A DNA stretch of 60,000 nucleotides, from positions 9,860,001 to 9,920,000 of the forward strand of contig OZ249436.1 of the NCBI GenBank assembly GCA_965235115.1, written 5' to 3'. The position numbers were made by a program, and so were the translations under genes. Shown one piece after another: positions 1 to 53,300 of this stretch. Under the pieces are notes generated by a model. It saw only the letters and a list, made by a program, of their open reading frames with translations, was not told the DNA's origin and did no database searches. The first letter of the stretch is position 1. Every line of letters starts with the position of its first letter. The stretch is from Laetmonice hystrix. Its lineage: Eukaryota.

Positions 1-1073
1 GGTCTCACCAGGGTGGAATGAGCTGCACGCGGTTACCGCGGTTACCGGTGCTGGGTGGGGGCACCAGGCAGTGGCTGCAGCCAGCTCCAATTTATCAAAC
101 TATGTTCCCTTTCTTACCCTTGATTTAATAGCACGAGGTCGTGCATGGGCACGGTTAAAATTAGCTACAGTAGTCGCTACTATGAACTCATGGAGATTGT
201 GGTTTGTGGCTTGCAGTACACAGAGCTTCACGATGAAACTACTGCCACACACACTGCCGTCATGAGGCAGTTACCGGTGTAACAGAAGAACATGATCAAA
301 GGAAATATTAGTGCTCCTCATACAAATGCAATTAACTATACAGCTCAACTTTAACACAATCAAGTATCAGGATCTACAATACAAGATCTACAATTACCTA
401 AAATAAAACTGCTGGACCTATAATAGCTGCCATAAAAAGGTTCTACAACAAGGGTAACGCTCAGCCTTCACGAGGGCTTCTGTTAGTGTGCATCTCTGAC
501 ATTCTAGCAAAATTTATACCCAGAGAAAAAATCAGTAAAATTGTTAAATACAAACAAAATATTCTATTCTTATTCATACACAGCATTCCCCACCTGTCAG
601 CGTCCTTGACCAGATCGATCATGGCCCAACTAACCGGGCTTCAAGTACCCTCTTGCAAAAATAAGGGATTAATATAGGGGAATTTTTTTTTTAAATGGTG
701 ATGGTTGCTAGGCAAGCAAAAAGGTATCCCATTCCCAACTTGATATAATAAGTTGGAGCCTGATTGAATAGAAAAGATTTCAATTTCACGTTCTTTGTAT
801 TTTTGAGATACAGTCCATGTGAGATCATCCATCATACATTAGTCACAAAGAAACTTATGTCTTCATCCATCATTTGGAGTAAGTGGTTTTCTTGAAGTGT
901 TTTCGAGATATGAATTGTCGAAAATGTCCCGAATTGATTGAGTTACAAATGAGACTTAACCCTTTCTAGATTGTCCCCTTACGGCCAAGACGTGCACTAG
1001 TGATGCCGTAATAATGGAGTGCATACATGTGCCGTAAGGACGGGCCTTTCTGTGATAACGGATTGCCTCCCAT

Positions 1074-1444
1074 CAGGGTTCCCACAGAAATCTGATATTT
1101 GAACCAATTCCATGACTTTTCCATGATGAAATACCTATTTTCCATGACTAGTTGAAAGCATGATGAAGGTTGAAAGAGAATGATTGCGAGAAGACGCCAC
1201 ACAAACTGTAGCGCAAAAATATTAATAAATGCAGAACTGAAAACTGGAAGACTGCCATAGCCAGGGACAACAAATTACACGAGAATGTGATGGCACATGA
1301 TCATCGATTCCATGACTTTTCCATGACCTTTTCCTTTGCATTTCACCTTTCCATGACTTTTTGAAAAATTACACTTTTCCATGACTTTTCATGAGTGTTT
1401 TTTTTCCAGGATTTCCAGGATTTCCGGGACACGTGGGAACCCTG
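1074..1444. mobile_element. Non-autonomous DNA transposon, CAGGG termini, 7-bp TSD
   Basis: TIR CAGGGTTCCCAC/GTGGGAACCCTG; CTCCCAT duplicated at 1067-1073 and 1445-1451; internal TTCCATGACT repeats. Confidence 0.8.
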
Positions 1445-2315
1445 CTCCCATGCTCCCAATCACTGTCATCCCCAGAAAAAATATCCATGTTTTAGACAAA
1501 AGTAGGGATTTGAGTCTAGAGTTGGTCTAGGTCTAGCGTAGCTAGCACTCAATGACGTTACGTCATGATGCTGCGATGTGGCTCTATACAAAATGGGCTT
1601 TGGCAAGGCATCACCCGTTTAATTTAATACAACTTCCTAACTTTAGTTTATAGAAAGTATATGTTACCTTGTTCACTTATATTTAAGCTGAACACAAAAA
1701 AAATTATCTTGCTTGTTGTGACAATGTCCCTCATATGCCTTCCCTTGTCACCGAGTTTGAAAGAAATCCTGACAATTATCGCTCCAGATGTCTTTATATC
1801 CAAGATGGCCACCAAGCAGCTCCATTTTGAATGATGTTTGACCTGTATCATCTTTAAAGTTAGACTGTCCCTAGTTATAATGTAATGTAATATTATGTTT
1901 CATACAAGATTACGTCGTTATTAACTGTTTTGAGGGTACAGGCTGTTACTCATGACCTTGATTAACCTTTCAAAGTTGCTCAAGGACATGGAAAATGGCG
2001 CCGAACGAAACTAAATTCCTATCTATCAATAATAGTAACTATTGCGTTATCATTATCTTGCACCGTTTTTGAGATATGAGCCAAAACGCTTTTATTTGAT
2101 GGTGAAAAAACAATGACCACCATGTCGTGATATTTGCTCTGAACTCAGAATATATGTCAGCATTTGTTTATTGTCTCTGGTTGGGGATAAAGAGGCAAGG
2201 ACAATTTACAATTTGCCTGTTGCTCTATGGCCAACTCTATAATGAAAGCATACAAAACTTTGGTCTCAGTGAAGCAGTGATTTGAACCATAGCTGAAAAA
2301 AATATCATTGCTTAC

Positions 2316-5300
2316 CTTCTTCTGCTAAATCTTTGTTTACGACTAATTTCCCATGCCTCAGGTAGTTTAGTACTGGGCCAAAGTAGGTTGGATCACGGTC
2401 AATCAGATATGCTCCATTTTCGTCCTGAAAAATATGAATAAATATATAATAGACCTCTATGTAAAATACAATCAGTAAAAAGTTCACAGTTTGGTACTGC
2501 ATTTTATCGATACCACTGCTGACCTGTACAAGACAATAGCAAAGAAATGGTAAGCAGGCTTCCCACGCGTTAAGATGGATGGATGGATGGATGGGATGGG
2601 ATGGGATGGGATGGGATGGGATATGGGATGGGATATGGGATATGGGATATGGGGGATGGGATGGATGGATGGATGGATGGATGGATGGATGGATGGAGGG
2701 AGGGAGGGAGGGAGGGAGGGAGGGAGGGAGGGAGGGAGGGAGGGAGGGAGGGAGGGAGGGAGGGAGGGAGGGAGGGAGGGAATCCTTCACTGGCTTCATC
2801 AGACACTTACTCACAACTGACACATTCACTACTGACTCTAATTATCCCATTTCCCCCCCGAAGTTGCCTTGCCCTTTTTTAATTCGGCTGCCAGACTCTG
2901 GCAGTTACATGTGAACTCGGATCAGGGTGATCTCAGCCCGAAATTATAAACTCGCCCCAGTACCTTGGCCTTTTAGTCACTAACTTTTCAGGCTGGTGTC
3001 AAAGCAGCTGTCGCAGTTGAGCCTCGCCCGCCTTGGGCCAACTTCACCACATCTTTCCAACATCCCCTAGATATGGGCCGAGATCACCGTGGTCTGAGGT
3101 CACCAGTGCTGGGCCGAGTTTACCAGGGGGGTGTTTCACTAACAGCGACAGACAGTCCGACCGGACGACAGACTGACCGTCTGTGTCTTAAAAAAGTGTT
3201 TCTAAACTGTCCGACCCAGTCGGACTGTCCGACTTTCTAGGAGTAGGACTACTCAGGAGTTGTCCTACACGGCAGTCGGACCAAAAAACATGGTGGACCA
3301 ACTACTGTTTGATTCTCGACATGTCAACTTTGGCTGCCAATTTGAGAAATTTCTTCGTCCTTACTAATGTTAAGTGCACTCCTCAGGACTGTAGTGAAGG
3401 TTTTCATATTTGTATTCCTATCCTGATTAGATGTATCTGATAATTATAGCATTTATAGAGATCGACTGTTTACAAGTGAACCGATATGCTGCAAGCATGT
3501 GGCTGTGCCAGATTGACCCACTTAGATTGTGACGTAATCTTCTCAAACCTCAATATATGACCCGGAAGGCAAACATTGACCTTGGATCAGGACAACGTTA
3601 GCAACGTATCTTTAGCCAAAAAGTGACAGGTTTTATATCTATTAAATATATAAAATCTGCATCATACAGGCTAATGACAGACGATTACACAATGAAAATC
3701 AGTGCGAACTATTGCCGAGTGAGAAGATGTCTCAAAACCTCTTTTTTGTACATCACAAACTGCCAGAAAATATATAGATCAAGGCTTGGGAAATGCACGC
3801 TTGTTCGACGTGGTATTGTGACGTCGCTCTTTGTTTGCTACTATTGTCATGTCAGCATGGCAGCGTCGGACAGTCCGTCTCAGTCGAAATACGCATGGAC
3901 AACGTTAGTGAAACACCTCATGGGCATTGTCCGTGGCAATTCTGACTTTTCATCCGACAGACGGTCCGACCCGGTTGGACAAGTAAACGTTAGCGAAACA
4001 TCCCCCAGTACCCGACTCTGCCTCTGGGGCCCGTTTTACTAATAGCGAGCACAGTGATTTTAGACGAAGTATAGTCAATGCGTCCGATCGCCAAAGTGTC
4101 CGCTGAGTCAATGCGTCCGGGGGCTAGTCAAAGTGTCCGATGGGGAAAGTCAAAGTGTCCGCGGTCGTTAGTCAAAGTGTCTGAGGTCGTTAGTCAAAGT
4201 GTCTGAGCACAGACTACCACACATAAATGAATAAAATCCGACAGAAAATGGTGGATCTTAAATATTAAATTGGAAATAAAACCTGGCCACCTTTAGCTTT
4301 AGCCCGGCAGGTGAGCCAGGGTTCGTACTGCCCGCCCGGGCTTGACCAGGCCTGAACCCCGGGCCCGCGGCCTGCCTTGCGCTCTCGGTCCGGTGGGAGA
4401 TCTCGGCCGGCTGGCCGGGCGGGCGGTCGGCCTTGATTGGTTCACAAAACGACTTGTTTACGGATTGGCCTAAGGCTAGGAGGCCAAGTATTTCTTCTGT
4501 GACTGGCGACTGACTCGGACACTTCTACCGGCGGACACTTTGACTCCCATTGGCGGACTCTTTGAGAATACACGGCATATGAGCCCGTCGCGATTTGAGC
4601 CCGTCACTTGAGCCCGCCGGGTTAAACCCCGCGAGGGTCCCGTCAAAGCAGAGCCTATAGCGGCGCCCTGGTGCCGGTTGGTGTAGGTCAGCCAATTATA
4701 ATCCAATTCTCGGCAATTGTTCAAAAGATTATATAGATCCGCCTAGCCATATCCCGCTCTCTACCGACCGGCTGAGGCCCCTGCTTCAACAAGCCCAGGC
4801 CGAACGGCCCGGCCGAGGGCAAGGCCCATACAAGTCCCGGCCGATCGGACCGGCCGAGGCCCCCTACAACTTAGCCCGGCAGCGAGCGAGCCGCTGGCGG
4901 TCCCGTAGCAGCTTGAGCGAGTAAGCGAGCGGGCGAGTGACCGGCCACCGCTCCCTCGCTCACCCCGGGCAGGCTCGGCGGCTCCCCGAGGGGCTCATAT
5001 GACGGGATCATTTCGCGGCGGGCTCAAGTGACGTGATACCCTCTTTGACTCTAACGGCAGACACATTGACCCAAGCGGCGGACACATTGACTCGGACGCT
5101 TTTACCATCGGACACTTTGACCAACCCCCTTTTAGACGTAGTATTTTTCGACCTTTAGTATGATATTTAGCATGATAGTAAAACCGGCCCCTGGCTTGTT
5201 GTTGGAGTAGCAGCCAGTAGGGTCTGGGAGCGGGATCAGGATGGGATGGGACTGGGACTAACCTACCTAACCTAACCTACCTTGTCGGAATTGAGATCTG

Positions 5301-5475
5301 GATCGTCTTGGCACAATCTATACAAGAAAGACTTGGGGTCTCTGCTTAATGTGGTCCGTGTTGTTTGAAATAATGTTCCTCCTACGTTCAATTTTACCCA
5401 TGCATCTTTCCTCACTGACCGAGAGTCGGTTTTGTTATCGTGAACATGGTTCACTTCCATCCTCTCCGCCGCCAT
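2316..5475 (-). CDS. KCTD5: BTB/POZ domain-containing protein KCTD5/KCTD2/KCTD17-like, 5' part (exons 1-2; remainder not found in window)
   Basis: Exon 1 5475..5281 (MAAERMEV...[40 protein letters not shown], donor GTAGG); exon 2 2424..2316 ([44 protein letters not shown] acceptor, GTAAG donor). Diagnostic KCTD5-subfamily T1/BTB motifs; paralog identity not resolvable. Confidence 0.92.
2574..2780. repeat. Compound microsatellite (GGAT)n/(GGGAT)n/(GGGA)n
   Basis: Directly visible; source of spurious low-complexity ORFs. Confidence 0.95.
3127..4005. mobile_element. PIF/Harbinger-like MITE
   Basis: TIR GGGGGTGTTTCACTAAC / GTTAGCGAAACATCCCC; CAG duplicated at 3124-3126 and 4006-4008; subterminal GTCCGAC/GTCGGAC repeats. 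Confidence 0.75.
4027..5190. mobile_element. PIF/Harbinger-like MITE interrupted by a nested element
   Basis: TIR GGGCCCGTTTTACTA / TAGTAAAACCGGCCC; CTG duplicated at 4024-4026 and 5191-5193. Confidence 0.75.
4067..5129. mobile_element. GC-rich Mutator/foldback-like element with 9-bp TSD
   Basis: TTTTAGACG duplicated at 4058-4066 and 5130-5138; tandem AGTCAAAGTGTCCG subrepeats at the left end, inverted copies CGGACACTTTGAC at the right end. Confidence 0.7.
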
Positions 5476-5751
5476 GATGGGTTCTGACAACTTGCTCACG
5501 AACTCACGAGAATAGGTGGGAAATTTATTCATAGAGCTGAAAATAGATCAAACCATGGTTATGATAAAAATATTGTAAGAAAATATTCTTAGGATCACCT
5601 CATTTATAAGTTTATAGCTTAATTAAAATTATGTGTATTCTCATTTCTAGCGAGATTTTAACGAGAGTTATAGCCTCCATATTGTCATCATCAGTGGGGA
5701 GAGGAGTTGGAAGAAGGGTGTGCTGCATCCAAGGACTGCAAAGCATAAATT
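5476..5751. promoter_or_regulatory. Putative bidirectional promoter KCTD5-like / ATP5PD
   Basis: Divergent ATGs at 5475 (-) and 5752 (+) separated by only 276 bp, AT-rich core. Confidence 0.7.
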
Positions 5752-8700
5752 ATGGCAGCACGCAGAATTGCAAAATCTGCAGTAGAATGGGCTGCATTTG
5801 CAGAACGTGTGCCACCCGCACAAAAGGATGCCTTTCGTGCTTTCAAGGCTAAATCGGACATGTTCATAAGCAAGTGAGTGCCGGTTTCAGAGTCCGACGT
5901 CAACAACATCAAACTATTCAAAGTCACAGGGGTCAAGCTCGCTGACAGAGAGATTGAATGAAAACTGAGCTTGAATCAACCTGACGCAGATAATGGCATA
6001 AGTAGCCTAACTGAATGACGGGTAGTCCGAGATCTGTCACTAAGTACCATGTCACTGAGTCAGCAGTTGTGGTTATTTTAATTTTTGGAAGATAATATGA
6101 CATTGTCATTGACCATAATGTTGACAATGAATGATATGACATAGGCCTATGTTCAGATTTCAGGGAGTGTATGACTATGACTGAGTGTGAGACCCAGTCT
6201 CTATGACTATAATGTGCACGTCATGTCCCAGAGGCCAGACGAATACACGGAGTATGAGCCCGATGCCATGCGAGCCCTTGATGTCAGCCCCTCCTAGTCC
6301 TATTCTGTCCTGAGCCGGTTTAACCCCAGTGAGGGTCCCATCAAAGCGTACGGTGGCGGGGTGTGTTGCGTAAATCCCGCTTGTTAAAATCCTCTGCTCA
6401 CTGTCAGTTAACGGGATGTTGTGTTGCATAATACATTCCCACACACTACACTGACTACAGAGACCGTGAAACAGTTTAGACAGTGGGGGGGGGGGGGAGG
6501 GGGCTGCAGTTTGGGATGGCAGTCACGCAAATACTAATATGATGTAGGTGCTACCTAGAGGGCGAGCGCAGCGACGGGAGGCCTACAATATTATAAGTAC
6601 ACACTGTATAACAATATACAATGTCAGGACTGGTCACTTAGCAGCACGGACGTCGGGATATTGTGGCGTCACAGTGAACAAACACTCACGCGACTGTTTG
6701 TTCACTGTGACGTCACAAATCACACACGCTCTGAAAGGGTCACATGACCCTCCATGGATTTCTCCATGGATTTGCTCCATGGTTTTTCCGGTTCCGGTTT
6801 TACGTGACGAAATTTTTTGGTGAGACAGTATGTGTCACCTTGGCAACCCTTTCACACGTGTTAATCATAGAGCTCGCTTCGCGAGCCGCTGCGCGGCTCG
6901 CTTGCGCTCGCTATTAGAGATTTTTTTATTAAAACGGGTGCCTAAAAAGGTCGCCGCAGTGAGAATTTTTTTATGCAACACACCCCAGACTATGCCAATT
7001 TGATCAGTCGACAATATAGCGAAAAATCTGGTCGCCTAAACTAACAGGAATTCGTCGCAATAATTGTCAGAAAACTTTTATTTATAAGATAAAATGTTGA
7101 CTGGAGAATGAAGTGTACACTTCACTTGGGACATGGAGTCTGAAATACTGGGACATGGCGCGCATGAAACATGGAGTCTCACCCTGTTTAAGTGTCGTGG
7201 TCTGTTTTCTCTGCCAGTCTGCAATCTCTGGGCGCATGGTTTTCTATTGTTTAGAGGCTGAACCTGACTAAGTGAGCATGTGTGTGTCACAGTTTGGGCT
7301 CACACCTCCTGTGGGGACACTTGTCAAAAAAAGTATTGTATGGGTGAGATCTGGGCCAAATTTGGTGCTTTTTGAAGAATTTGAACCAAGTGGTGCCAAT
7401 AATGCCCTGACTGTAGTTGGATGAGTGGCTGCCTTAATTTTGACGTATCAGGCTTTCCTGGAGATTTTGGACTTTTGGGGGGGAACGCTGCGAGTTTGGG
7501 GGGGGGGGAGAGAGTAATGCAAAATATTTCCCCCTGGAAATTTTTTTTGGGGGAGTAGCTGAATAATGGGGGGGGGGGCGAGTCCCCTCCCCCCCCCCCA
7601 AAAAAAAAGGGCCTGCAGGAAACCCTGCCTATGCACAGTGTATTGCAGCACATCATCTTTTAATCACTCCAATTTGAGGAATTTTCAATGGTACCATGCA
7701 CACTGGTCCGGCGCAATAAGTGTGTGCAGCAAAATTCACTCTCCAATGCAATTTGTTTGCTGCAATGCCCTGTGCTGCATCTGTGTGCATTGGCCTTAGG
7801 AACCTAGGTCAAGTGAAGCTACTGGGGGGGGGGGGGGGGGTGGCATGTTTAAGTAAAACTCATAGATTATTCAGGTACTGAATATAGCATTATTGTTTTT
7901 GTTTTGCAGAGTGCACAGTAAACCAGAGAACCTACCTACCATCGACTGGGCTTTCTACAAGTCAAGGGTTGCATCACCAGCCGTGGTTGACCAGTTTCAG
8001 AAAGCAGTATGTGCAGTCAATTGCAGACTATGCTCTTTCTGATCTTAAGTTGTATAATTGTTAGTTAGGGATTGGTCAAGTGCAATATTGATGCTATTTT
8101 TAATGGGGGCGGCAGTAATGAAATCGGGGCATGATATAATCCTAATTTCATAGGGAATTTGACTGATCGGCATTTCTCCACACTGTTGCAAAACAAAAGA
8201 TAGATAGGAATCAGGCGATTTGCATTTAGTGGCAAATTGCTAAGAATGGCATGTTAACTGACCATATAACTAAATAAGTTCAGATTTTGCAGCATGCATG
8301 TCTTTAAATTAAGAGAGAATGGCCTTGACAGTCCTTCCAAAGTGGTTAAATTTTTTTGGTGAAATTTGGTGCACATGCTGGTTCCTTCTTCATTAAAAAT
8401 GTACACAGTTGGAGTGACATGAATGAAATATAATGCAGTATTTTACTATAAAAAAAAAGACTCCTCCCCCCCCCACCCATGTGGAATTTCAAGGCTGGCC
8501 GCATACACAATGACATTGTATTATCTGCTTCAGAAAGCAAACTGAAGCTGATGATAACAGATGTGGATACTTTTATTTTCCAGTATGAAAGCCTTGCCAT
8601 ACCTTACCCAAAAGATAAAGGCAATCTGAAGGCAGAAGTGGATGCACAAGAGAAGGAAGCAGTAAGAGATCAAAATTATTATGATTTCATTAGTATTACT

Positions 8701-10046: not shown

Positions 10047-10265
10047 TATATTCCCAATTAAAGCACTGGGCGTTTGTGGGAACACCATTGTAATAGTCGA
10101 TATAATAATTATATTCCCAATTAAAACAATGGGCATTTGTGGGAGTACTATATTGTAGTAGTCGATATATATTCCCCTTAAAACAATGGGCGTTTGTGGG
10201 AGCACTATATCGTAATAGTTGATATATATTCCCCTTAAAACAATGGGCGTTTGTGGGAACACCAT
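10047..10265. repeat. Minisatellite, ~60-bp unit, ~3.7 copies
   Basis: Repeated ATATTCCC...AAAACAATGGGCGTTTGTGGGA..CAC.AT unit. Confidence 0.85.
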
Positions 10266-11701
10266 GGTTATTGGTATAAAGGTAATACCCGTACAGCTCG
10301 TAACTAGACATGCAGATTGCAGGCAATCAGGTATCCCGTTCCTCTATGGATGTATCTAGAAAGGTTCTGTATAGCATGAAAGCAAGTCAATCATACCAAT
10401 TATGAGCATAGGGTTACAAGAGAAAGACTGTAGGAAAGGTATATTCCAAATCTGGAGAAGATTCTCCAAAAAATGAGGGAGTAGATGCATTTTGACCAGT
10501 AATGAGCATAGGGTACCGACAGACCACTTAGACACCTGTGTACACAAAAATTTCTTCAAAATAAAAAATATAAAAATGAATACCAAAAAAAGGGTTGACA
10601 TAGGTGGGATTTGAAGGCAATACCCTTGTCATAAAATTCCCACACATCTGTTCACACACATATTTTGTGTTTCTGTAAATTCATGACCACAGTAATTTAA
10701 AAGTACTAAGTAGAAAATATTTTTAAAAAATTATAAAATCATGCCATGGATAGGATTCGAATCCACGACCCTTGGGAAGAAAGTCCTACACTCTACCACA
10801 GCACCATCCGTGCACGCACACAATTAGTAGAGTCCTGCAATAAATGAATGACCATTGCCATAGGCATAGAACTAAACAACGATGAATTACATCATACCGG
10901 GGAGACGCCATAGCAGGCTTATAAAGTCCCCTATTGTAAGAGAGCTATTTACCAAGATTATCAGAGGTAGAACATATATAAATAAATGAAAACGGACCTC
11001 TGGCATGAAGATCAGACACTGTACCACTAAGCCATCTGGGCACACACTCAATTTGTTGAGTGTAGCTGTAAATGAATCACCATAGTGGTAGATAACTGTG
11101 TGTTACGTCATACCATCGTTACGTCATAGCAGGCTTATAAAGGACGCTTAGTGGAAGAGAATTATGCCATTATCATTAGATATCAACGAAATTCCACGAA
11201 CTTCCTCATTACATGCAAAATAGACAAATTTCAAAGTCACGTGACTCAGCGATATGACGTCATATTTTAAAAAAAGCTGCCATTAATCGATCAGCCCCAC
11301 TATGACGAAGCTATAAATCAAATTTGGGGAAGATTCTGCAAAAAATGAAGGAGTAGATAGATTTTGACTGTTTTCTATGGCTTGACCTGTATGTCAGAAA
11401 GGTCAAAGGTCAAAGGTCAAATGTATGTGGTAAATGATAAAGGTACTAGTCGTAAGTGAGATGACATGAATAAGTTTTGTGTATCTCTGACTGGAAGTGT
11501 ACCACGTGATATCAAAGTTGCCAGCTATAAAACGTCATAACATAACGTCATGACGTCACATGACATATTCCATCATATTTCGAGGTCTCCATGTCATGAA
11601 GTATCTAGCCTGAAAGTTTCATCCAGATATCTTGAAAACTGAGGGAGATATTCACCAGACCTTAACTACAACTACAACAACTACTACTACTACTACGACA
11701 A

Positions 11702-14700
11702 CTAGACACGTTGTGGCGATACCACAATTGATCCCATCCCCGGGGAGTCACGTGATATATGACTTCCTATTCCTGTTCAATAGTAACCATGGCTCAATCT
11801 TTCACCGTTTACGAGTTGGAGGCTTAGGAAAATAATTTTAATATCATTATAATCTCATACGTCATGATCCTGCTTTCATGCAGGCTCAGATCCAGTACCG
11901 CAAGAAAGGAGGGGCACCAAAGGTGCAAGGCGAACATGGGCGCGGGGGGGGGGGGGGACTTGAATTTAGAAAGTCAAAGAACGTTACTTCTGGAGCTAGA
12001 TGTGAAGTTTCTCAAAGTATTTCAGGCGCATGTAGGGGTCCGGGGGTTGGACCCCCTCTCCTGCTCCCCCAGAGCATAGATTCATTTTTCCTTAGATTCA
12101 GCGGGACACCATCGAACGAAGAGGTGCAAAGCATTCTGCCTATTTTAAACTGGTTGAGTGATGAATAGGCCTACACAAAATATAGTGCACTAAATGGGTC
12201 CATAAAAGGCTTCTAATTTAAAAAAAAAAACATTTCGGCGACCACCCTGCTGAAAATCCTAGATACGTGGCTGTATTTAGACCTAGCCTAACAATAATGT
12301 CAATTCTTCAAAAAGAAAGAGTGCAGATACGCCCCTGACATGTCGAAAGGGATCATAGAGATCTACTGCATGGTATATCTACCTATTTTGATATATTAAT
12401 CATTGTGGAAGGATACATTAAAATCGTAATTATATCTAGAGACTCTGATTGCCAAGCAATACAGGTAGGTCCCATTTCCCGAATGGTTTTCTATCATTAC
12501 CTATATTTTTCTCTCATTTAATTATTGTCCCAACAATAGCGTCATTTCCATTCACATGGAAGTTACTAAGTATCCTTTTGACATTATGAAATATTATAGT
12601 CCTGATGGATTATATGGATTATACCCGTTACGGGCATCATGAAAAATATCACAGACTCAAGAACAATAGGTGCGAATGTCATCCACACCAGGCTGTTGGC
12701 TCACGCTGAAACCAAGTGCAGCTGGCCAAAAGTTTGCCGTGTCTCTTGAACTCCACAGCCAACAATCAGTAGTAGCCTAGTGTTTTATTCAGCTCTCCTA
12801 TGTAAGATTTAAAAACAAATGCATTAGACAGTTATATCTACAGTTCAAAGGCACAGCTAATTCAGTTATGTCAGTTCTGAATACACAATCATCCTCCACC
12901 AAACCGACCCTGACTGGGAGGGAGGGGGCGGAGTCACAACCCGCCTGCCGACCCGGCCGCCTGGCCGGCCCTTATCACCAGCGCTTACGTAACCCTCTGC
13001 CGACCCTGGCTCTGGCCTCCCAGCAGGTGATTTGTGTATTCAGAGATGCCACCTGTCAGAGTGTAAAAATATTATAGTGAAGACTATACCCATTAAAACT
13101 TACAATTCTGGCCATATTACCTTTCCAAAACAAGAACTAAACAGTCAGTGGTATACCTGAATCTATACACTTTGTAATTGTTGTATTTGTATATGGCTAT
13201 CTTAAACAGGTTTAAGGTAGAGCCTGTCAACGTCAGATTACATTATTTCATCATAAATAAAAAAGATATTGGTAAATTTATGAAAAGAAATATGCAAAGT
13301 GACCAATCGTCAATAGCAGCACATATCTAGTGACCAAATACACGATTCCTATATGACTAAAGCAGTTTTAGAAAAAAATGTCAAAAGTGACAAACTTCAA
13401 AGTCACGTGGTTTGGCGAAAATAGGTCAAATCGCTAATCCTTGGAATCGTATTGTGAACCTTTCGTTAGAGAGTGTTTTTGCCGAATATTGTCGAATTTT
13501 ACCAAAAAATAGAGAAGGAGAAGCAATTTAACCGATTTGTGACCAATGACCCAGTTCACCCTAAGGTCAAAGGTCAAAGGTCAAATCAAGACTCAAATTA
13601 AGGCAGCACCTTTGGCCGATTATGAGGGCATGACAGGTTTTTAAAAAAAATTCCCAATATGAGCTTAAAAATGGCTTCAATTTTCATAATACGTTTGACG
13701 TCATCACGTCATGACGTGACGTTACATGACGTCAGGATTCGATGCCTGACCATACTTTGTCATTGTCAAGATGTGTGCCAAATTTCATTTTGATATTTTG
13801 AAAATTGACTGAGATAGACATACAAGTTTACTACTACTACTACTACAACTACGACGCCAAAAACTAGACACGTTGTGGCGATACCACAATTGATCCCATC
13901 CCCGGGGAGTCACGTGATATATGACTTCCTATTCCTGTTCAATAGTAACCATGGCTCAATCTTTCACCGTTTACGAGTTGGAGGCTTAAGAAAATAATGT
14001 TAACATCATTATAATCTCATACGTCATGATCCTGCTTTCATGCAGGCTCAGATCCAGTACCGCAAGAAAGGAGGGGCACCAAAGGTGCAAGGCGAACATG
14101 GGCGCGGGGGGGACTTGAATATAGAAAGTCAAAGAACGTTACTTCTGGAGCTAGATGTGAAGTTTCTCAAAGTATTTCAGGCGCATGTAGGGGTCCGGGG
14201 GTTGGACCCCCTCTCCTGCTCCCCCAGAGCATAGATTCATTTTTCCTTAGATTCAGCGGGACACCATCGAACGAACAGGTGCAAAGCCTTCTGCCTATTT
14301 TAAACTGGTTGAGTGATGAATAGGCCTACACAAAATATGGTGCACTAAATGGGTCCATAAAAGGCTTCTAATTTAAAAAAAAAACATTTCGGCGACCACC
14401 CTGCTGAAAATCCTAGATACGTGGCTGTATTTAGACCTAGCCTAACAATAATGTCAATTCTTCAAAAAGAAAGAGTGCAGATACGCCCCTGACATGTCGA
14501 AAGGGATCATAGAGATCTACTGCATGGTATATCTACCTATTTTGATATTTTAATCATTGTGGAAGGATACATTAAAATCGTAATTATATCTAGAGACTCT
14601 GATTGCCAAGCAATACAGGTAGGTCCCATTTCCCGAATGGTTTTCTATCATTACCTATATTTTTCTCTCATTTAATTATTGTCCCAACAATAGCGTCATT

Positions 14701-16149
14701 TCCATTCACATGGAAGTTACTAAGTATCCTTTTGACATTATGAAATATTATAGTCCTTATGGATTATATGGATTATACCCGTTACGGGCATCATGAAAAA
14801 TCTCACAGACTCAAGAACAATAGGTGCGAATGTCATCCACACCAGGCTGTTGGCTCACGCTGAAACCAAGTGCAGCTGGCCAAAAGTTTGCCGTGTCTCT
14901 TGAACTCCACAGCCAACAATCAGTAGTAGCCTAGTGTTTTATTCAGCTCTCCTATGTAAGATTTAAAAACAAATGCATTAGACAGTTATATCTACAGTTC
15001 AAAGGCACAGCTAATTCAGTTATGTCAGTTCTGAATACACAATCATCCTCCACCAAACCGACCCTGACTGGGAGGGAGGGGGCGGAGTCACAACCCGCCT
15101 GCCGACCCGGCCGCCTGGCCGGCCCTTATCACCAGCGCTTACGTAACCCTCTGCCGACCCTGGCTCTGGCCTCCCAGCAGGTGATTTGTGTATTCAGAGA
15201 TGCCACCTGTCAGAGTGTAAAAATATTATAGTGAAGACTATACCCATTAAAACTTACAATTCTGGCCATATTACCTTTCCAAAACAAGAACTAAACAGTC
15301 AGTGGTATACCTGAATCTATACACTTTGTAATTGTTGTATTTGTATATGGCTATCTTAAACAGGTTTAAGGTAGAGCCTGTCAACGTCAGATTACATTAT
15401 TTCATCATAAATAAAAAAATATTGGTAAATTTATGAAAAGAAATATGCAAAGTGACCAATCGTGAATAGCAGCACATATCTAGTGACCAAATACACGATT
15501 CCTATATGACTAAAGCAGTTTTAGAAAAAAATGTCAAAAGTGACAAACTTCAAAGTCACGTGGTTCGGCGAAAATAGGTCAAATCGCTAATCCTTGGAAT
15601 CGTATTGTGAACCTTTCGTTAGAGAGTGTTTTTGCCGAATATTGTCGAATTTTACCAAAAAATAGAGAAGGAGAAGCAATTTAACCGATTTGTGACCAAT
15701 GACCCAGTTCACCCTAAGGTCAAAGGTCAAAGGTCAAATCAAGACTCAAATTGAGGCAGCACCTTTGGCCCATTATGAGGGCATGACGGGTTTTTAAAAA
15801 AAATTCCCAATATGAGCTTAAAAATGGCTTCAATTTTCATAAGACGTTTGACGTCATCACGTCATGACGTGACGTCACATGACGTCAGGATTCGATGCCT
15901 GACCATACTTTGTCATTGTCAAGATGTGTGCCAAATTTCATTTTGATATTTTGAAAATTGACTGAGATAGACATACAAGTTTACTACTACTACTACTACT
16001 ACTACTACAACTACGACGCCAAAAATAATACAGAAGACGAAACCACACAATTTCTAAATCCCATCCCCTCCGTAGGGGATGGGATAATAATACAGAAGAC
16101 GAAACCACACAATTTCTAAATCCCATCCCCTCCGTAGGGGATGGGATAA
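11702..16149 (-). mobile_element. Non-autonomous Helentron family B, outer copy (11702-13863 plus 16088-16149)
   Basis: CTAG end, hairpin TTGTGG-N5-CCACAA (11711-11727), subTIR ATCCCATCCCC (11731-11741), terminal hairpin ATCCCATCCCCT-ccgt-AGGGGATGGGAT, (TAC)n microsatellite. Confidence 0.85.
13864..16087 (-). mobile_element. Non-autonomous Helentron family B, inner intact copy (2224 bp)
   Basis: Near-identical to the outer copy; removing it restores the outer junction GCCAAAAA|TAATACAGAAG exactly, with no TSD. Confidence 0.85.
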
Positions 16150-17634
16150 TAATAATAGTGTACACCCAAACCGTACAATTTCAGGATCCCGTTCCTCAGT
16201 CAGAGGAACGGGATAATAATATGTGTAAGATTTAAATATAAAACGACCCCCCCCCTGATTAATGTGAGGTAAAATCTGAGAGGGGTTGTTTCTGGAAAAT
16301 AATGGGGCCAAAGCTTGTACTAAGGTACCCTGTTCACACTGATAATCATAACACATCAACCCGACGTCGCCTTAGACCGTCCCCGTTAATGTACTGCTAA
16401 TGATCCAGTGTGTGGGTAGATTAACCGCTCACTACTCAAACCCCAATACACTACCCCTACTAGTGTGATTGTGTACAATGTACAGAGCTGTAAATACATT
16501 GGTATTAACATGGTTCAGTTTAGATGACCGTGTTAGGTGTTCGTCCACATTTGGTTGGATATTATAACATATCTTATTTCTAGGTCCTCTGAGGTAGGTT
16601 GTAACAAAGGTTGACTGTCAAGAAATCCGGAATTCAGAAAATCGTGTGAATTAATACATGTACATAAACTTGAATAGCATTGATAGCATTTGCTAGAGAT
16701 AAAGACACATTTATAATTCTTTCCCCAAACAATCTTTATTGTTCAGTAGTGCCCTTTGTTGACCTATAAACTTATGATGTGCATACAACTCCCATGTATT
16801 CCTGTACCCTTCGAAATGATACATTATAAATGCATTAGTTGACAGGATGCCGCCAGGCAAAGTATACCGGTACATGTTCTGTATTAGAGCTAGAGAATAT
16901 ATTGATCAGCCATTCGTGTATTTTTTATGGCCCGTAGCACAAAGCCACTGCCACTAGATATGATACATGTCCACTTTGAATATAAAACCAAGCATGTTTT
17001 GACCATTCATGCTTGTACTCAATCGGTTCCATGTGTGCAGTTTGCTGTCCAGTTGCTCCTTTACAAAATAATAAGCATAGCGGAAATGTGCTAGTCATAG
17101 AAACTAAGAAAGGGCCCTTTAGTCCTCGTTGTTTTCTGAATATATAAGATATTCTGGCATGGAACATTACACAATTGCAACGTGAGATTTATTATAAGGT
17201 ATGTTCGGTACACGATAGTGTTATATTAGAATTTACCTCCTTTCTGTTCTGTTTCTTCATAACGCCAACCTCAGTCATTATATAACCCCCGGTTAACCTT
17301 TCCCTTCATAGTTATTCTGCACCCAGTTTTAAAAACGAACGTGTATTCCATATCGCAATGATTGCTTTGAGACTCCTGTACAATCGGACAAGTTCAAACG
17401 GTTTGCATCATGTGATGCCAAAAACAGTCGCTATAATAACGAGTTGATTCTGGGAGAACTTAGCAAATATATACACATACACCCTTATTTACGTTTATCA
17501 CAGAATCTTACTTATTAATTAACAAGGCTTCATCTATAACAGAATAACCCTTAACAACACAGAGCATATCGTAACAACTTTGTACATACCTCACCACGCC
17601 TATTATCATGTAGCACAAGGTAAATCGATTGCTT

Positions 17635-19015: not shown

Positions 19016-22000
19016 TCATCTACGTTTTAGCAGCTCTTCAATCTGGAAAACAACAATCACAAACATACCGTAGCATTATTACATCTTTCTCCTATTTAGA
19101 AAGTTCATTCGTTATCTGAGAGATCAAAGGTTGTAAATCTGGTATGTATTATTTGACTCCTGGCACCAGCACAGTGTTTTCAAGGATGGTGATGGGAGGA
19201 AGTATAGATTACACACGTACCTGTGCTTTGTACATGTCTTTGACATCCTGGAGGTCCATGTTGAGCTCATCTGCTTCTTCTACTTTCTCCCCATACATCT
19301 GTAAGAGTGCTTGGTATCGACTGTCGAGGTCCTGCAATCAAACCGTCATTTAGGGTGAACCTCATAAAAATAAATATATTACAGTACTGTAATTACTGTA
19401 TATTGTATAGCTATGGTAAATTTGATACTATGCTGGAAGAAGATACATGTAATAGGAAAAACTGAAAAAAACTTTTTTGGCGATGAAAACAAATCACTTG
19501 TTTTGCCAAGTACACATGTACCGTTCTAAATAATGATCCCATGACACTGGATTTTGATAAAACTCTTAGAAATGCAGGCATATTAACCTTGTGAGCCAAC
19601 TTAATTTCTGGGTATTCTGTCAGCTGCTCAAGAAGGTCTTCATTTTTCGTTGACAGGTTGACAAGTTCGCGAGCCATTGACTCTCGTGTATGCTCCAACT
19701 CAGCAATTTCTGCCTGTATTTTTATAACAAAGATCATTTATAACGTAAAGGTAAAGTTTAGATAGAAAAACTGGATTTACTGCTTAATCAATGATATCAC
19801 AGGAAGAAAAAAAGACATAACGGTAAGAACAATGTCTGTCACTTAAAATATCACCAAAATTGATTGTTGCAACAATAATTACAAGGTTTACTTCGAACAC
19901 CAATAACCTATTACAAAGCTTTCTCGTCATTTATTAGCATTGTATTAAAAGATTTCGGACGTGTTTTATCTTTACCTGAAGTTGTGCAATTTCACCCTCC
20001 TTCATCTTCAACTGTGCTTGTAAACTTTCAATCAACGTCGCAGCACCTGACTGTCGCAGACTTTCATAAAGATTAGCTTTACTACCATTGGCTGAGGTCA
20101 ACATCAGCGTTTTCTCGAATACATCTTCCTAGAGGAACAAAAATGGCATGTGGTTCAGAGCACCTGTACAGAGCGTGTACATACATTAACTCGTCAGACT
20201 TTGTTTTCCTGGCTAAATCATACACTGTTAGTATCCATAATATCATGACAAGAATCTTTAGCCAAATATTAAAAACCTTACAAAACACTCGGTTTCTTTG
20301 AAAAATCAGTAACTGTCTCAGAGCATAAAACTGGTAATTAGAAATGATCAGAGTAGCAAGAAGATATGTAAGAAAGCAAAATTTAAATGAACTTTTAATG
20401 GCGAGTTTTTTTTTTACAAGATTTAAGGACACCATGCAATACTTTTCTTTTATCTTTTAGTCACTTTTTCAAAAGTTTTCACGAGTTTTCCAAACAGGCA
20501 ACGATACAGTACTTTATGTGTCCTCTAAGTGCTGGAATCTCTCATAGAAAAATCAACTTTTAAATACTTGAAAAAGTTGCACTGGGATCTTTTTGGCATA
20601 TTGATCTTCCTTCGACTAGGCAAATACCGGGCTCTCTTTACAAAATATATTGCCGATTACTTTTCTTCTTAATGATAAAACTAAGTGAATCAGCCAAGCA
20701 TGAACAGGCAGGTGCAGGAATTTCATTGGAATCATGAACCCAAGCAGTGAAACACTCCAACATCAACCTTACTGTCATAATTCTGTGACTTACAGGTAAT
20801 TACCCTAGGTATTAACAACTTGCCTGTCTCCTGTATTTGCCAAACTTCATGAGGGATAACAGTAAAAATCGAGACTTAAAATTCTTATCAGTTAGAAGGC
20901 AGAATAGTGCACAGATATGAAGTTAGTTACAGAAATTTAAATACCAAGATGTATTCAAATGTTATGGCTCCATCATGATATAACTGGCAAGATTAGTAGG
21001 TACCCCGGTAAGCAGCATGGGAAGAAACTGCCTCTTTAACACCATTGGTTCTCTACAATTACATGTTTCTCCACATTAAACTGATGATATAACCTTACCT
21101 TCACTCGAGCCACGTCCATCTCTCTCCCACCCCAACCTCCTGCCCATTACCTATACACTTTGATATCAGACAGCTGGTAGGCAATAATACCGGCCTTATC
21201 AATGGTAAACACTACTCTCATCAGTCCCAACTGATTTCCACATAATAACATTACCGAACTGATTTTTTTTATCACTTTTAAATGTTTTGTGCTTCATTTG
21301 TGTGTAAAAAGGTGTGTAAACGACTCACCTGTGAGATAGAGAGAGGTGTGACGGGGTCTCCGGTAATGCTTCCTTCCCGTGAGAATGAGTGAGGACTTGG
21401 TGTGGTACTGGGTCTCTGAAGCTGTAGCTCCTAAATCACAACCATAATATTGACCACTCTTGATTCAATAAGGCCACATTACTGAGAAAAACTTTTTTTT
21501 TGAGGGGATGTTTTTCAATCTGTAAGTGTCAATCAAGACCCCAGCTGTGCTACTGACATGAATGTTTGCTATAATTTTAAATATGACCAGCAAGTACATG
21601 AAACAGCAACCATGGAATTTGATCTGGGCTTACCTTGTCACGCAGCTGTTCTTGGACAATTACAAGCTTTTTCTTTTCTGCTTCAACTCTCATTTTTTCC
21701 ATCTCCAACTGATTTTCAAGCAAAATCTGCAGATAAATAACAATATATCACATGAACTGTCAGGCCTGATTCAAACAGTAGGAGAAAAGGGGAGGTTAAT
21801 TTGGTTTCAAATAACACCAAAGTTATCTGCTGACACTCACCTTATCTTTTTTGAGCCCAGATATTGCAGTTTCATTGGTGTCCTTTATTGCTTCCAATTT
21901 GGCGGTCTCACTATCATATAAATAAATCCACAAAAGAATTTAAATGACAAAAAGGATAATTTACTCTTATTTCTTCAAATACATGGTAAGATTTATTCTA

Positions 22001-38517: not shown

Positions 38518-39996
38518 CTAGACATGCAGATTGCAGGCAATCAGGTATCCCGTTCCTCTATGGATGTATCTAGAAAGGTTCTGTATAGCATGAAAGCAAG
38601 TCAATCATACCAATAATGAGCATAGGGTTACAAGAGAAAGACTGTGGGGAAGGTATATGCCAAATCTGGAGAAGATTCTCCAAAAAATGAGGGAGCAGAT
38701 ACATTTTGACCAGTACTGAGCATAGGGTACCGACAGACCACTTAGACACCTGTGTACACAAAATTTTCTTCCAAATAAAAAATATAAAAATGAATACCAA
38801 AAAAAAGGGTTGACATAGGTGGGATTTTTAGGCAATACCCTTGTCATAAAATTCACACACATCTGTTCACACACATATTTTGTAGAGTGTTTCTGTAAAT
38901 TCATGACCACAGTAATTAAGAACTAAGTAGAAAATATTTAAAAAAAATAAAAATCATGCCATGGGTAGGATTCGAATCCACGACCCTTGGCAAGAAAGTC
39001 CTACACTCTACCACAGCACCATCCATACACGCACACAATTAGTAAAGTCCTGCAATAAATGAATGACCATTGCCATTGGCATAGAAGTAAACAACGATGA
39101 ATTACATCATACCGGGGAGACGCCATACCAGGCTTATAAAGGTCCCCTATTGTAAGAGAGCTATTTACCAAGATTACCAGAGGTAGAACATATATAAATA
39201 AATGAAAAAATCTTTTGTCACAGGTGGGATTCGAACCCGAGACCTCTGGCATGAAGATCATAGACTCTACCACTAAGCCATCCGGGCACCCACTCAATTT
39301 GTTGAGTGTTGCTGTAAATGAATCACCATAGTGGTAGAGAACTGTGTGTTACGTCATACCATCGTTACGTCATAGCAGGCTTATAAAGGACGCCTAGTGG
39401 AAGAGAATTATGCCATTATCATTAGATATCAACGAAATTCCACGAACTTCCTCATTACATGCAAAATAGACAAAATTCAAAGTCACGTGACTCAGCGATA
39501 TGACGTCATATTTAAAAAAAAACTGCCATCAATCGATTCGCCCCACTATGACGAAGCTATAAATCAAATTTGGAGAAGATTCTGTAAAAAATGAAGGAGT
39601 AGATAGATTTTGACTGTTTTCTATGGCTTGACCTGTATGTCAGAAAGGTCAAAGGTCAAAGGTCAAATGTATGTGGTAAATGATAAAGGTACAAGTCCTA
39701 AGTGAGATGACATGAATAACTTTTGTCTATCTCTGACTGGAAGTGTACCACGTGATCTCAAAGTTGCCGCACATAATACGTCATAACATGACGTCATGAC
39801 GTCATATGACATATTCCATCATATGTTGAGGTCTCCATGTCAGGATGTATCTAGCCTGAAAGTTTCATCCAGATATCTTGAAAACTGAGGGAGATATTGA
39901 CCCGACCTTAACTACAACAATAATAATAATAATAATAGTGTACACCCAAACCGTACAATTTCAGGATCCCGTTCCTCAGTCGGAGGAACGGGATAA
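38518..39996 (-). mobile_element. Non-autonomous Helentron family A, copy 2 (intact, 1479 bp)
   Basis: Same termini as copy 1 (CTAGACATGCAGATTGCAGG...ATCCCGTTCCTC-agtcg-GAGGAACGGGATAA), (TAA)n microsatellite, internal tRNA-like dimer. Confidence 0.88.
38958..39288 (-). other. Two tRNA-derived Pol III promoter modules inside Helentron A (38958-39024, 39217-39288)
   Basis: Minus strand TGGTGCTGTGG...GGATTCGAATCC and TGGCTTAGTGG...GGTTCGAATCCC (A and B boxes), each followed by a T5-T6 run; acceptor and anticodon stems degenerate. Confidence 0.7.
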
Positions 39997-50300: not shown

Positions 50301-53300
50301 GACAGGTCTTAATGTAGCTGTTAATGTCTTAATGTACGTTAAAATTGGACTTACGCAGTAAACGGCATCATCTTTAGGGCAAGTGAACGGCTGATACAAA
50401 AGCCAGCTCCACCCGTGGCAAACCAAAACAACGTCCTCTGCTGCAAATAGACACATAACATTTTTTTGACAAAAGGTTACTTCAATCAATGGCTACTGTA
50501 GGGAGAGAACTAGCATTACCTTATATAACATTTTTTTCAAAATGTTTGAATTGCCTGGCTGTACCTGTATCTGCAGTTTGAGGTATAAATCCCAACGTAT
50601 TTAGTTATTTTAAAACCAGGGTCACCCTACGCCAAGCGGTTTTCAAAACATGCGCTCCGCCTCCAACAGTCCAACCTACGTATAGTTCCAAAGGTAGGCA
50701 GACACATTCCGTGGCCATGACAACGTTTACGAAGAGCTGGAAGCAGTTACAGCATGCACCCAGTTGGCCAGAAGGGCGCGCGGGCGCAGCCTGGACAGAA
50801 TCTGTTTCAACCAGGAAGGTATGAGCAGGCGTCTATCACTCATCTCAAGCCGGGAATTGTGTGCCCCCAGCCCACTGACGACCTGCGCTTGCTGTCAGCA
50901 ACAAGGGCAATGGTTCCACTACTTCATCTGGCCCTCCAACATATACTGGGCGCTGACAGCATTTGTAGCCCACATTACTCTACGTCACCGCCACCAGAGT
51001 ATCAGAAAACGATTTTGAAGTACAGATAATCATTTCTTACCATTTATACTTTCGAAGGCAGTTTTATCCTATTTCAAAATATCTTGCAGCGAAGTTATCA
51101 GACACCGTTTCTAGGCTATACCATTCTTCTGCCCACATTAAATTACCAAAGTTTCCTTTGAACTAAAGATTCTGTCTGCGCTCTGTAGTTTCACCTTACC
51201 CCCATACACCAAACAACAGCAACAACAACAACATTTAAAAAAAAACTAGAGCGCTCCAGGAAATCCTTCAATGTAAAGCATTGCCGGTATGGTGTCAGTG
51301 AAACCCAAGTCAAACTGTATTATAGAAAGTTATCCACGAGCCGGCTTAATCTGCCGCTCACAAACACTCCCGTGTTGATGTCGCCCTCTCGGCCTCCCTA
51401 CTCGATACGTTTTTATTCGTGCTGATATCAGTATATTATCAGAGTGTGGCAGCATATTGTGGCAGGTTAGACGAGATGTTGCAGGGTCAGCACGCGCCTG
51501 CTGCCACTCCTATCAACTCTCGCACCAACACACACGACTACCAACGATGGCACACGGCCATTTCTGCCCTCATTCCTCTTTTTTTAATCGTGACCTACAC
51601 TTTTAAAGACGGCTCTTTTTTTAGTTTCTGAAACAATAATAAATAAAAAGATTCCACCTCAAGTAAAGATGTTAGTTGATTGTTTCCACATAAATCTTGA
51701 TTTGATGATCTCACCAGGTTATGTCCTGAGTACAGACTTTGTCGGCCCCAGTCCTAGCAATAATAGACACGTTATACCGTTCATGGTCGTGTCGCTTGGA
51801 CATAATTATAATACATTATAATGCAGAACATCCTTTGTCACATCATTCACATGCAGTCTGAGGCAAAGCCTGTTGACGGGCGACTTGGTATGCGAGGTGT
51901 GTAGTGTTTACTGTCATTCTGGGCTGGGCACGCCAGGTGATGGCAATCACTGGTACAGCTACAGAGTGGTGCAAGATCATAGACTCGCTGTCGTAACCTA
52001 CATCGTCAGATGGACCATGTCCTCAACAGCTGGATACGCACTGCTACTAGAGGGTGTCTCAAAAAGGGCAATGCATGTTCAAACGGTCATTATGGCCAAA
52101 CTATAATCAGATTCACGTTATTATGGTTTTGCCTAAAGTAGAGGCTGTGAGATTTCCAGTAATAACTCGGTTATCTTCCTCCAGTCCTATATCGTTGAGC
52201 ATCATTGTCTTGAAAATGGCATATAAAATCCTGCTTGGGGCAGTTCCATGGTGAAAACTATAATTCCGGGGAATTATACTTTTCTCCTCGGTGGAAAGTG
52301 ATAAGAATACAATTAAATTGTGAGACAAATCATCACAGAAACGGGTTCAGGCTGTACGTTTTGAGGGTTACAGAAATGTGCATGCTGTGCCAACGGCAAA
52401 GGGACCGAGAGCTTGATCTGACGTGTCCAACTACTGTCTGGGGCTGAAACTGAGCCTCGAACTCCGAGCACTGATAGGTCCAACAAGGCCGAACCCTTGA
52501 TCTTGCCACGGCAAACCGCCAGCCTGGAACACGACCGCGACCTCGTGCGCTACCTGCGCACGATTCAATCTGATTCAAGGCCCAGATACAGCCGATGTTG
52601 AGATACGGTAAAGCCCGCCGTACACTGTCACGACTTTGCCCAACTCCCGATTCACGGCCGTACACTCTGCCGACCGACCCCGTATACAGGGTCGGTCGGG
52701 ATAATCGTGACAGTGTACACTGTCACGATTATCGGCTCCCGATCCATGCAGTGTGGGTGGCAAGGGATTTTGGTCAACTGCCGCTGAGCCGCTTGGTTCC
52801 CAATTCACTTTTCGAATCGGCTACGATCTCCAACTGCAGTCGGGAGCGGTCGGGAACCATGGTTACCGACTCCACTTGGGCAAAATCGGGAAAGTGTATG
52901 GCGGGCTTGATTGGCGCCGAATCTCTGACGATCAACTGACAAACTGTAATAACGTCGTCCAAGTAGAAACTAGGTGATATAAAGTTGGTGGGCTTGGTCA
53001 GGATACATCGGGTCCTGTGCCACTTCTGCTTCCACGGACGCGATTCTGACACGATTCACCGACTGGCGACTGGGGTACAGATTTCCTTAGTCTGATATTT
53101 ACTCTAAATATACGTGATACTTCAAAAAATTATTGGCAAGATCGGCATACATGACGAAACTGTGACTGCCGAAGCAATAACTACCAAAAGTTGCACTTGC
53201 ATACACTCGGCTGGCCAGAGAAAACCCATGATGTTCCATGACGGAAGTTCCTACGACTTCCAGGCCCGTACCAAGGATTGGCCTGGTGGGGGGGGGGGGG

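What the first reader, a model, noticed from the sequence alone, without database searches (positions are those of the whole stretch)
10304..16216. Russian-doll nest of Helentron-type elements: A contains B, which contains B
Seen: what looks like a 2.2-kb tandem duplication resolves as nesting. B inserted beside the microsatellite of A (junction ACAA|TAATAATAGTG, intact in copy 38518-39996). A near-identical B then inserted at the equivalent position of the first B (GCCAAAAA|TAATACAG). The three 5' hairpin termini end up stacked at 16058-16214. All copies share orientation, AA/TT sites, no TSD, and insertion points 62-67 bp from the host's terminus. Known: this subTIR/hairpin/microsatellite/CTAG layout matches DINE-1 and HINE elements. 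Inference: orientation-specific self-targeting next to the terminal hairpin, recently active, and a route to satellite arrays.
Basis: partly seen in the sequence, partly recalled or inferred. Interest (0 to 1): 0.75.

Follow-up and report, generated by a model that had tools for sequence, protein, structure and literature searches.

The report
Transposons nested in their own ends
What looks like a 2.2-kb tandem duplication in an animal genome is three non-coding rolling-circle transposons inserted one inside the other, most likely because each carries its own preferred landing sequence near one end; similar stacking is already known from fungi.

Summary
The nest is real in the sequence: A (10304-11701 + 16150-16216) holds B1 (11702-13863 + 16088-16149), which holds B2 (13864-16087). 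All lie on the minus strand with HINE/DINE-1 ends. Removing B2 restores exactly the junction seen in intact B; B1 and B2 differ by 17 substitutions. No read or contig spanning the junctions was seen.

All four insertions (including free copy A2, 38518-39996) sit in TTA^TT, three in TATTA^TT. That 7-mer occurs once in B1 and twice in A1, only 62-67 nt from the 5' end and only on the sense strand. So a sequence target can explain orientation and position without hairpin guidance; with the 5-mer alone the joint chance is about 0.05.

An extra pull to resident ends is not excluded: motif-only expectation for a B-in-B nest is 0.001-0.19 per genome under assumed sizes, and a related family shows 2 of 14 neighbours near a resident 5' end (expected 0.23).

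Contig depth suggests roughly 100-250 near-identical B copies. Stacked 5' termini from self-insertion are published for Fusarium FoHeli1. New members of a known kind, and a clean example of the proposed intermediate.

The parts
10304..11701 (-). Element A1, body and 3' end (CTAG at 10304-10307 on +; 3' stem-loop about 10315-10328; 3' subTIR about 10332-10344; microsatellite about 11665-11701)
   Evidence: subTIR placed by offset from copy A2 (I4)
11702..13863 (-). Element B1, body and 3' end (3' stem-loop 11711-11727, subTIR 11731-11741), inserted at the edge of A's microsatellite
13864..16087 (-). Element B2, complete 2224-nt copy (3' stem-loop 13873-13889, subTIR 13893-13903, microsatellite 15982-16014), inserted 62 nt from B1's 5' end
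16058..16085 (-). B2 5' hairpin (subTIR plus inverted repeat, 12-bp stem)
   Evidence: fold -13.5 kcal/mol
16088..16149 (-). B1 5' cap, 62 nt, with hairpin 16120-16147; identical to B2's last 62 nt
16150..16216 (-). A1 5' cap, 67 nt, with hairpin 16186-16214
38518..39996 (-). Uninterrupted copy A2 (1479 nt; 13-nt subTIRs 38546-38558 and 39983-39995; 4.0% substitutions from A1), serving as the empty-site control
10741..10812 (-). tRNA-like unit (A-box and B-box-like motifs) in A's central repeat; two such units in A2 near 38979 and 39237
   Evidence: motif match; ARAGORN found no tRNA gene; box motifs recalled

Best explanation
A and B are two related non-autonomous HLE2 (Helentron/HINE-type) families. 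They are moved in trans by a Rep/Helicase that is not encoded here. Inferred mechanism, from Helitron literature: the enzyme nicks at the T-rich 5' end, peels one strand to the 3' stem-loop/CTAG, circularises it, and joins it with fixed polarity into a target TTA^TT, best TATTA^TT. Each element carries that target at the AT-rich border of its own microsatellite, 62-67 nt inside the 5' end and on the sense strand only. A new copy landing in a resident copy therefore tends to go in there, in the same orientation, pushing the host's short 5' cap outward. Two such events (B1 into A, then a B from another donor into B1) gave body-body-body / cap-cap-cap. Shown: structure, junctions, target motif and its distribution. 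Inferred: the enzyme, the order of events, and that sequence preference is enough.
For: Exact empty-site restoration at B1 and the same junction motif in free copy A2. The B1|B2 junction is B-type right up to CTAG, not A-type, as insertion predicts and unequal crossover through the A/B microsatellite does not. Target TTA^TT in 4 of 4 and TATTA^TT in 3 of 4 insertions. The 7-mer occurs 1+0 times (sense+antisense) in B1 and 2+0 in A1, all at 62-67 nt. A and B align at 57% over 485 nt near the 5' end. At 14549, 14121 and 15464 both the B1 and the B2 letter appear to carry depth far above single copy in X1-X3, which suggests different donor lineages. In related family F1, whose microsatellite is GACA-type with no TT, 0 of 30 5' termini are stacked. 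Helraiser shows circles and no local hopping (PMC4778049 passages).
Against: The motif comes from only four sites and was chosen after seeing them. With the 5-mer alone, the joint chance that both events fall there is about 0.05. Motif-only expectation of a B-in-B nest is 0.001-0.19 per genome for assumed 0.3-1 Gb and 100-250 copies, so some extra bias may be needed. In F1, neighbours cluster near resident 5' ends more than expected (2 of 14 within 120 nt, expected 0.23, P=0.02). No spanning read was seen. The B2 letters at 14288, 14339 and 14802 had no contig support; private variants dropped by the assembler would explain this, but so would errors.
Confidence: 0.6

Rival explanations
1. Terminus-guided targeting. 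Transposase bound to a resident 5' hairpin captures incoming circles and integrates them at the nearest suitable T-run, so nests are enriched beyond motif density.
For: Low motif-only expectation for B-in-B. In F1, 7 of 55 3' ends lie within about 120 nt of a same-orientation resident 5' end against 2 opposite, four of them exactly head to tail. The ascertainment-corrected test gives P=0.02 (2 of 14) and P=0.01 (1 exact). Fusarium FoHeli1 often has 2-5 5' termini.
Against: The position here coincides with the only 7-mer targets in the hosts. F1 neighbours lie mostly at or outside the terminus, not about 65 nt inside (one nest about 115 nt inside, L097). The 7:2 orientation split is not significant (P=0.18), and the within-120-nt excess vanishes under broader terminus counts (P=0.11-0.26). 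Exact tandems can also come from circles or re-use of the same target.
Confidence: 0.25
2. B2 is a cis self-copy of B1 (autointegration), or the B-in-B composite formed elsewhere and moved into A as one 4.4-kb unit by reading through the first 3' end.
For: B1 and B2 are 99.2% identical and their 62-nt caps are identical. Two B copies in one 60-kb window are unlikely at 100-250 copies per genome.
Against: Three differing sites seem to segregate across many family copies, so B1 and B2 look like different lineages (third letters cannot be excluded). This argues against the cis copy only, not against the pre-formed composite.
Confidence: 0.1
3. Assembly artefact or two ordinary local duplications (a 2162-nt body and a 62-nt cap).
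For: No listed contig spans the junctions. All four runs come from one sample, possibly the source of the window.
Against: It needs two separate duplications whose breakpoints both fall exactly on element ends. The 17 substitutions are spread along the copies. The B1-in-A junctions cannot arise this way.
Confidence: 0.05

Closest known systems
DINE-1 / HINE non-autonomous Helentrons (Thomas et al. 2014, PMC4067079; Yang and Barbash 2008, PMC2374699)
   Same: SubTIRs, a 5' inverted repeat forming a hairpin, a microsatellite near the 5' end, central repeats (in A), a 3' stem-loop, TT insertion without target duplication, no coding capacity.
   Different: New sequences. The target seems longer (TTA^TT or TATTA^TT). 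The passages read do not describe self-nesting at a fixed subterminal site. No autonomous partner was found here.
Cg_HINE, pearl and DTC84 elements of bivalves (PMC7492417, PMC3879986)
   Same: Same modular layout in marine invertebrates, T-rich TT targets (AA read as TSD in DTC84), insertion into other repeats. A review notes oyster Helitron parts inserted within other elements (PMC12628747).
   Different: B has no clear central tandem array and is 2.2 kb. Here whole elements nest precisely beside the microsatellite.
Fusarium FoHeli1 with multiple 5' termini (Chellapan et al. 2016, PMC5148889; PMC13342296)
   Same: HLE2-type element with short repeated 5' pieces (31, 65, 73, 85 nt; up to five termini), explained by self-insertion near the 5' end.
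   Different: Those are mostly composites with several 5' ends and one 3' end, and self-insertion was inferred. Here all three 3' ends and bodies are still present, two families take part, and the host is an animal.
TE dimers by insertion-site preference (McGurk and Barbash 2018, PMC5932611)
   Same: Repeated use of a preferred target yields tandem units that can seed satellites.
   Different: That work covers target-duplicating elements and head-to-tail whole copies; the words helitron and DINE had 0 occurrences in it. Here the tandem unit lacks its 5' cap.

Membership tests
HINE / DINE-1 (non-autonomous Helentron, HLE2) | Subterminal inverted repeats of about 11-15 nt, asymmetric | tested here: met
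   A: 13 nt, 100% complementary, at 38546-38558 and 39983-39995. B: 11 nt read from the termini.
HINE / DINE-1 (non-autonomous Helentron, HLE2) | Short inverted repeat next to the 5' subTIR (hairpin) | tested here: met
   12-bp stems at all four 5' ends; folds at -13.5 and -13.8 kcal/mol.
HINE / DINE-1 (non-autonomous Helentron, HLE2) | Short stem-loop near the 3' end | tested here: met
   6-bp stems beyond the 3' subTIR in A and B, seen in the sequence. The B stem is in the predicted fold; the A stem only partly.
HINE / DINE-1 (non-autonomous Helentron, HLE2) | Microsatellite inside the 5' end | tested here: met
   TRF arrays at 11665-11704 and 15982-16014.
HINE / DINE-1 (non-autonomous Helentron, HLE2) | Insertion in TT without target-site duplication | tested here: met
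   The B1 empty site equals intact B2 with no gain or loss when the 5' TT is counted as element. The same boundary ambiguity is described for DINE-1.
HINE / DINE-1 (non-autonomous Helentron, HLE2) | No coding capacity | tested here: met
   No frame of 120 aa or more lies wholly inside A or B. Seven internal frames of A1, A2, B1 and B2 gave no Pfam hit.
HINE / DINE-1 (non-autonomous Helentron, HLE2) | Interspersed, multicopy | tested here: met
   Second A in the window. B contigs at about 120-240 times single-copy depth (rough, the tool warns depth is no copy number).
Helentron proper (endonuclease-bearing Rep/Helicase partner) | Autonomous element with the same termini encoding Rep/Helicase/endonuclease | not testable with these tools
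   No genome held. No RepHel hit among 30 of the 158 window frames scanned. Helentron versus other HLE2 subgroups is therefore open.
Canonical Helitron (HLE1) | 5' TC, no inverted repeats, A^T target | tested here: not met
   Ends begin TTATCCC, carry subTIRs and insert in T^T context; only the 3' CTAG is shared.

The most novel reading that the evidence does not exclude
This HLE2 transposase homes to resident copies. It binds the 5' hairpin of an existing element and integrates into a target that the family keeps 62-67 nt inside its own end. Self-nesting would then be an evolved safe-harbour strategy that yields multi-capped chimeric elements and 2.2-kb tandem units genome-wide.
Probability: 0.2. 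Interest if true: 0.65.

Novelty: new member of a known kind. Interest (0 to 1): 0.36.

Why it matters
It is an intact example, in an animal, of the intermediate that the Fusarium work proposed for multi-5'-end Helitrons. It suggests the HINE target is longer than TT and is carried by the element itself. It predicts B copies elsewhere with two or three 5' caps and one 3' end. It also shows that apparent tandem duplications and small satellites can be nested transposons. With a young family of perhaps 100-250 copies, motif versus terminus targeting can be tested with one genome-wide count.

Tried and rejected
Whole genome: none held, so no genome-wide counts. Read evidence: four contig sets from one sample were laid on 13790-16330. 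No listed piece spans the junctions, and 63 joints and 1074 loose ends were hidden, so this is no test either way. The A/B terminus pattern found 0 matches in metagenome and viral contigs; the core motif found 0 in GTDB genomes. The AGGTCA-repeat scan of viral contigs gave 20 loci. The 2.2-2.3-kb circular ones, briefly suspected to be element circles, share only the motif with A and B; the one read in full looks like a small Rep-encoding virus (recognition recalled), and several others are heptamer arrays. Rfam gave only sub-threshold hits (mir-1294 on the hairpin stack, 37.8 bits against a cut-off of 90). ARAGORN found no tRNA. Simple tandem duplication and unequal crossover via the A/B microsatellite were rejected on junction sequence. 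An idea that B1 and B2 share a private allele at 15632 was dropped: depth was 106 and 66 in X1 and X2 but 3896 in X3. One search used boundaries off by two and is superseded except for its folds and terminal reads. Earlier-finding look-ups by sequence, by eight words and by place gave nothing.
Full report
Observation. Self-comparison shows 10301-11680 matching 38515-39926 at 92.7%, the match resuming at 16146 against 39926, and 11614-13863 matching 13780-16025. CTAGACA begins at 10304, 11702, 13864 and 38518, and perfect 12-bp hairpins stand at 16058, 16120, 16186 and 39966. With corrected limits (one search was off by two): A1 = 10304-11701 + 16150-16216 (1465 nt), B1 = 11702-13863 + 16088-16149 (2224 nt), B2 = 13864-16087 (2224 nt), A2 = 38518-39996 (1479 nt). 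All read on the minus strand from TTATCCC to CTAG. Taking B2 out of B1 gives exactly the sequence that B2 has at that place. B1 and B2 differ by 17 substitutions and 4 gap events (0.77%); A1 and A2 by 58 substitutions (4.0%).

What the elements are. Both have subTIRs, a 5' hairpin, a microsatellite inside the 5' end and a 3' stem-loop. They have no long frame and no Pfam hit in seven internal frames. This is the layout given for DINE-1 and HINEs (PMC4067079: abstract, Background, first third of Results and passages) and for oyster Cg_HINE (PMC7492417: parts 1-3 of 7). A and B align at 57% over 485 nt near the 5' end, so they are related families. No autonomous partner could be sought: no genome is held. 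The host is a eukaryote with a BTB-domain exon near 2.3-2.4 kb and a weak TMF1-like hit at 19.4-19.7 kb. That it is a marine invertebrate is my inference from recalled repeat motifs and was not tested.

Real or artefact. Four contig sets from one sample hold the region. Laid on 13790-16330 they show flank depth 56 and 66 (X1, X2; none in X3, X4) and B contigs without a difference at depth 8780, 8225 and 9250. The ratios are about 120-240, a rough figure since the tool warns that depth is no copy number. The uninterrupted B 5' junction appears at depth 15000 in X2, so most B copies are not nested there. No listed piece spans the nest junctions, and most rows were hidden, so read-level proof is missing. 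An artefact would need two separate duplications ending exactly at element ends. Unequal crossover through the A/B microsatellite would leave A-type sequence before the second CTAG, whereas it is B-type.

Donor. Seven of the 17 differing sites were in the visible table. At 14549, 14121 and 15464 the depth left for B2's letter is 859-8426 in all of X1-X3, while B1's letter is the majority. At 14288, 14339 and 14802 B2's letter has no support, and 15843 is inconsistent between runs. This leans towards B2 coming from another donor lineage, but third letters and dropped variants weaken it.

Why there and why that way round. All four insertions sit in TTA^TT (element sense), three in TATTA^TT. The 7-mer occurs once in B1 (62 nt from the 5' end) and twice in A1 (64 and 67 nt), and never on the other strand. 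Given nesting, the chance that both events fall 40-100 nt inside in the same orientation is 0.0007 for TT alone, 0.048 for the 5-mer and 1 for the 7-mer. The motif rests on four sites and was chosen after the fact. The 5' junction also recreates the target after each insertion, so the cap region is a cluster of sites. What the motif does not clearly explain is frequency: for assumed genomes of 0.3-1 Gb and 100-250 copies, 0.001-0.19 B-in-B nests are expected per genome. The scan reads very many windows and favours oddities, so one case is not decisive.

Relatives. The 79 with long flanks define an older related family, F1, of about 990 nt with a GACA-type microsatellite; hosts were not identified. 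Of 55 distinct 3' ends, 9 had F1-like sequence within 150 nt of flank. Seven lay near a same-orientation 5' end (four exactly head to tail, two just outside, one nested about 115 nt inside) and two were opposite. Of 30 5' termini, none was stacked. Exact tandems exceed expectation (P 0.00002-0.02 depending on the null), while the within-120-nt excess ranges from P 0.009 to 0.26 and the orientation split gives P 0.18. A test using only non-focal ends gave 2 of 14 within 120 nt (expected 0.23, P 0.02) and 1 exact (P 0.01); its 11:3 orientation count includes some ends that probably belong to the focal copy. So stacking is absent where the microsatellite lacks TT, which fits the motif model, while a weak pull to resident 5' ends remains possible.

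Mechanism. Inferred from Helraiser (PMC4778049, passages: circles, polarised junctions, no local hopping) and from HINE descriptions, not shown here: a trans-acting Rep/Helicase peels the element from its 5' T-run to the 3' CTAG and joins it with fixed polarity into the T-rich target. Order of events: A, then B1 into A's microsatellite edge, then B2 into B1. A nick at an outer cap with a stop at B2's 3' end would release a composite with two or three 5' caps.

Known precedent. Chellapan et al. report FoHeli1 copies with the first 31, 65, 73 or 85 nt repeated and propose self-insertion (PMC5148889: abstract, sections 6 and 10, passages of section 16). A 2026 paper finds two to five 5' termini in many copies (PMC13342296, passages). 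Insertion-site preference as a source of dimers and satellites is in PMC5932611 (passages), and nested oyster Helitron parts are noted in a review (PMC12628747, passages). Passages of PMC11417382, PMC3879986, PMC13085455, PMC2374699, PMC8268682 and PMC11136912 showed no complete animal HINE-in-HINE nest at a fixed subterminal site. Eight searches surfaced none, but the library is incomplete and I opened no supplements; Table S6 and Figure S11 of PMC5148889 may show complete nests. Earlier notes of this scan describe nested Helitron2-like arrays in other genomes; they are unchecked leads.

Verdict. A real triple nest (about 0.9 likely) of two new, young HINE-type families. It is most simply explained by a self-carried target motif (0.6), with terminus-guided homing the main rival (0.25). 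The satellite route is possible but has not gone past two units. New members of a known kind; interest 0.36.

Noticed in passing
window 10741-10812; 38956-39027 and 39214-39285: A's roughly 250-nt central repeats each hold a tRNA-like unit with A-box and B-box-like motifs in element sense; the second B box is deleted in A1. Not called as tRNA genes.
   Followed up: partly
window 13917-13979 (and 11755-11817): A roughly 60-nt core near B's 3' end has summed depth about 1.2 million in X1 and many different loose ends. It is shared with many other repeats in this genome and with family F1 in other animals.
   Followed up: partly
window about 11890-12275 and 12900-13060 (and the B2 equivalents): B's interior includes a G-run segment that resembles a MITE (recalled, not tested) and a GC-rich island; possible captured cargo.
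   Followed up: no
window 26687-27331: A roughly 640-nt element that is its own inverted repeat, with poly-T tracts inside; foldback or MITE-like.
   Followed up: no
window 52670-52733: Two adjacent perfect hairpins (11-bp and 17-bp stems).
   Followed up: no
L035:1128, L071:1298, L096:1960, L097:2993, L069:427: A variant F1 subfamily; four of its five copies sit next to or inside another F1 copy, three at or near a same-orientation 5' end. They may be visible only for that reason.
   Followed up: partly
L030, L032, L049, L051 (first 3' end): F1 3' ends flanked by what look like other repeat families (recognised by eye, not tested).
   Followed up: no
window 2308-2430, 19414-19737, 33751-36114: Host exons on the minus strand: BTB domain, a weak TMF1-like hit, and a 787-aa low-complexity frame. 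The nest lies between the first two.
   Followed up: partly
window 10110-10262: A 57-nt x2.7 tandem repeat just left of A1's 3' end.
   Followed up: no
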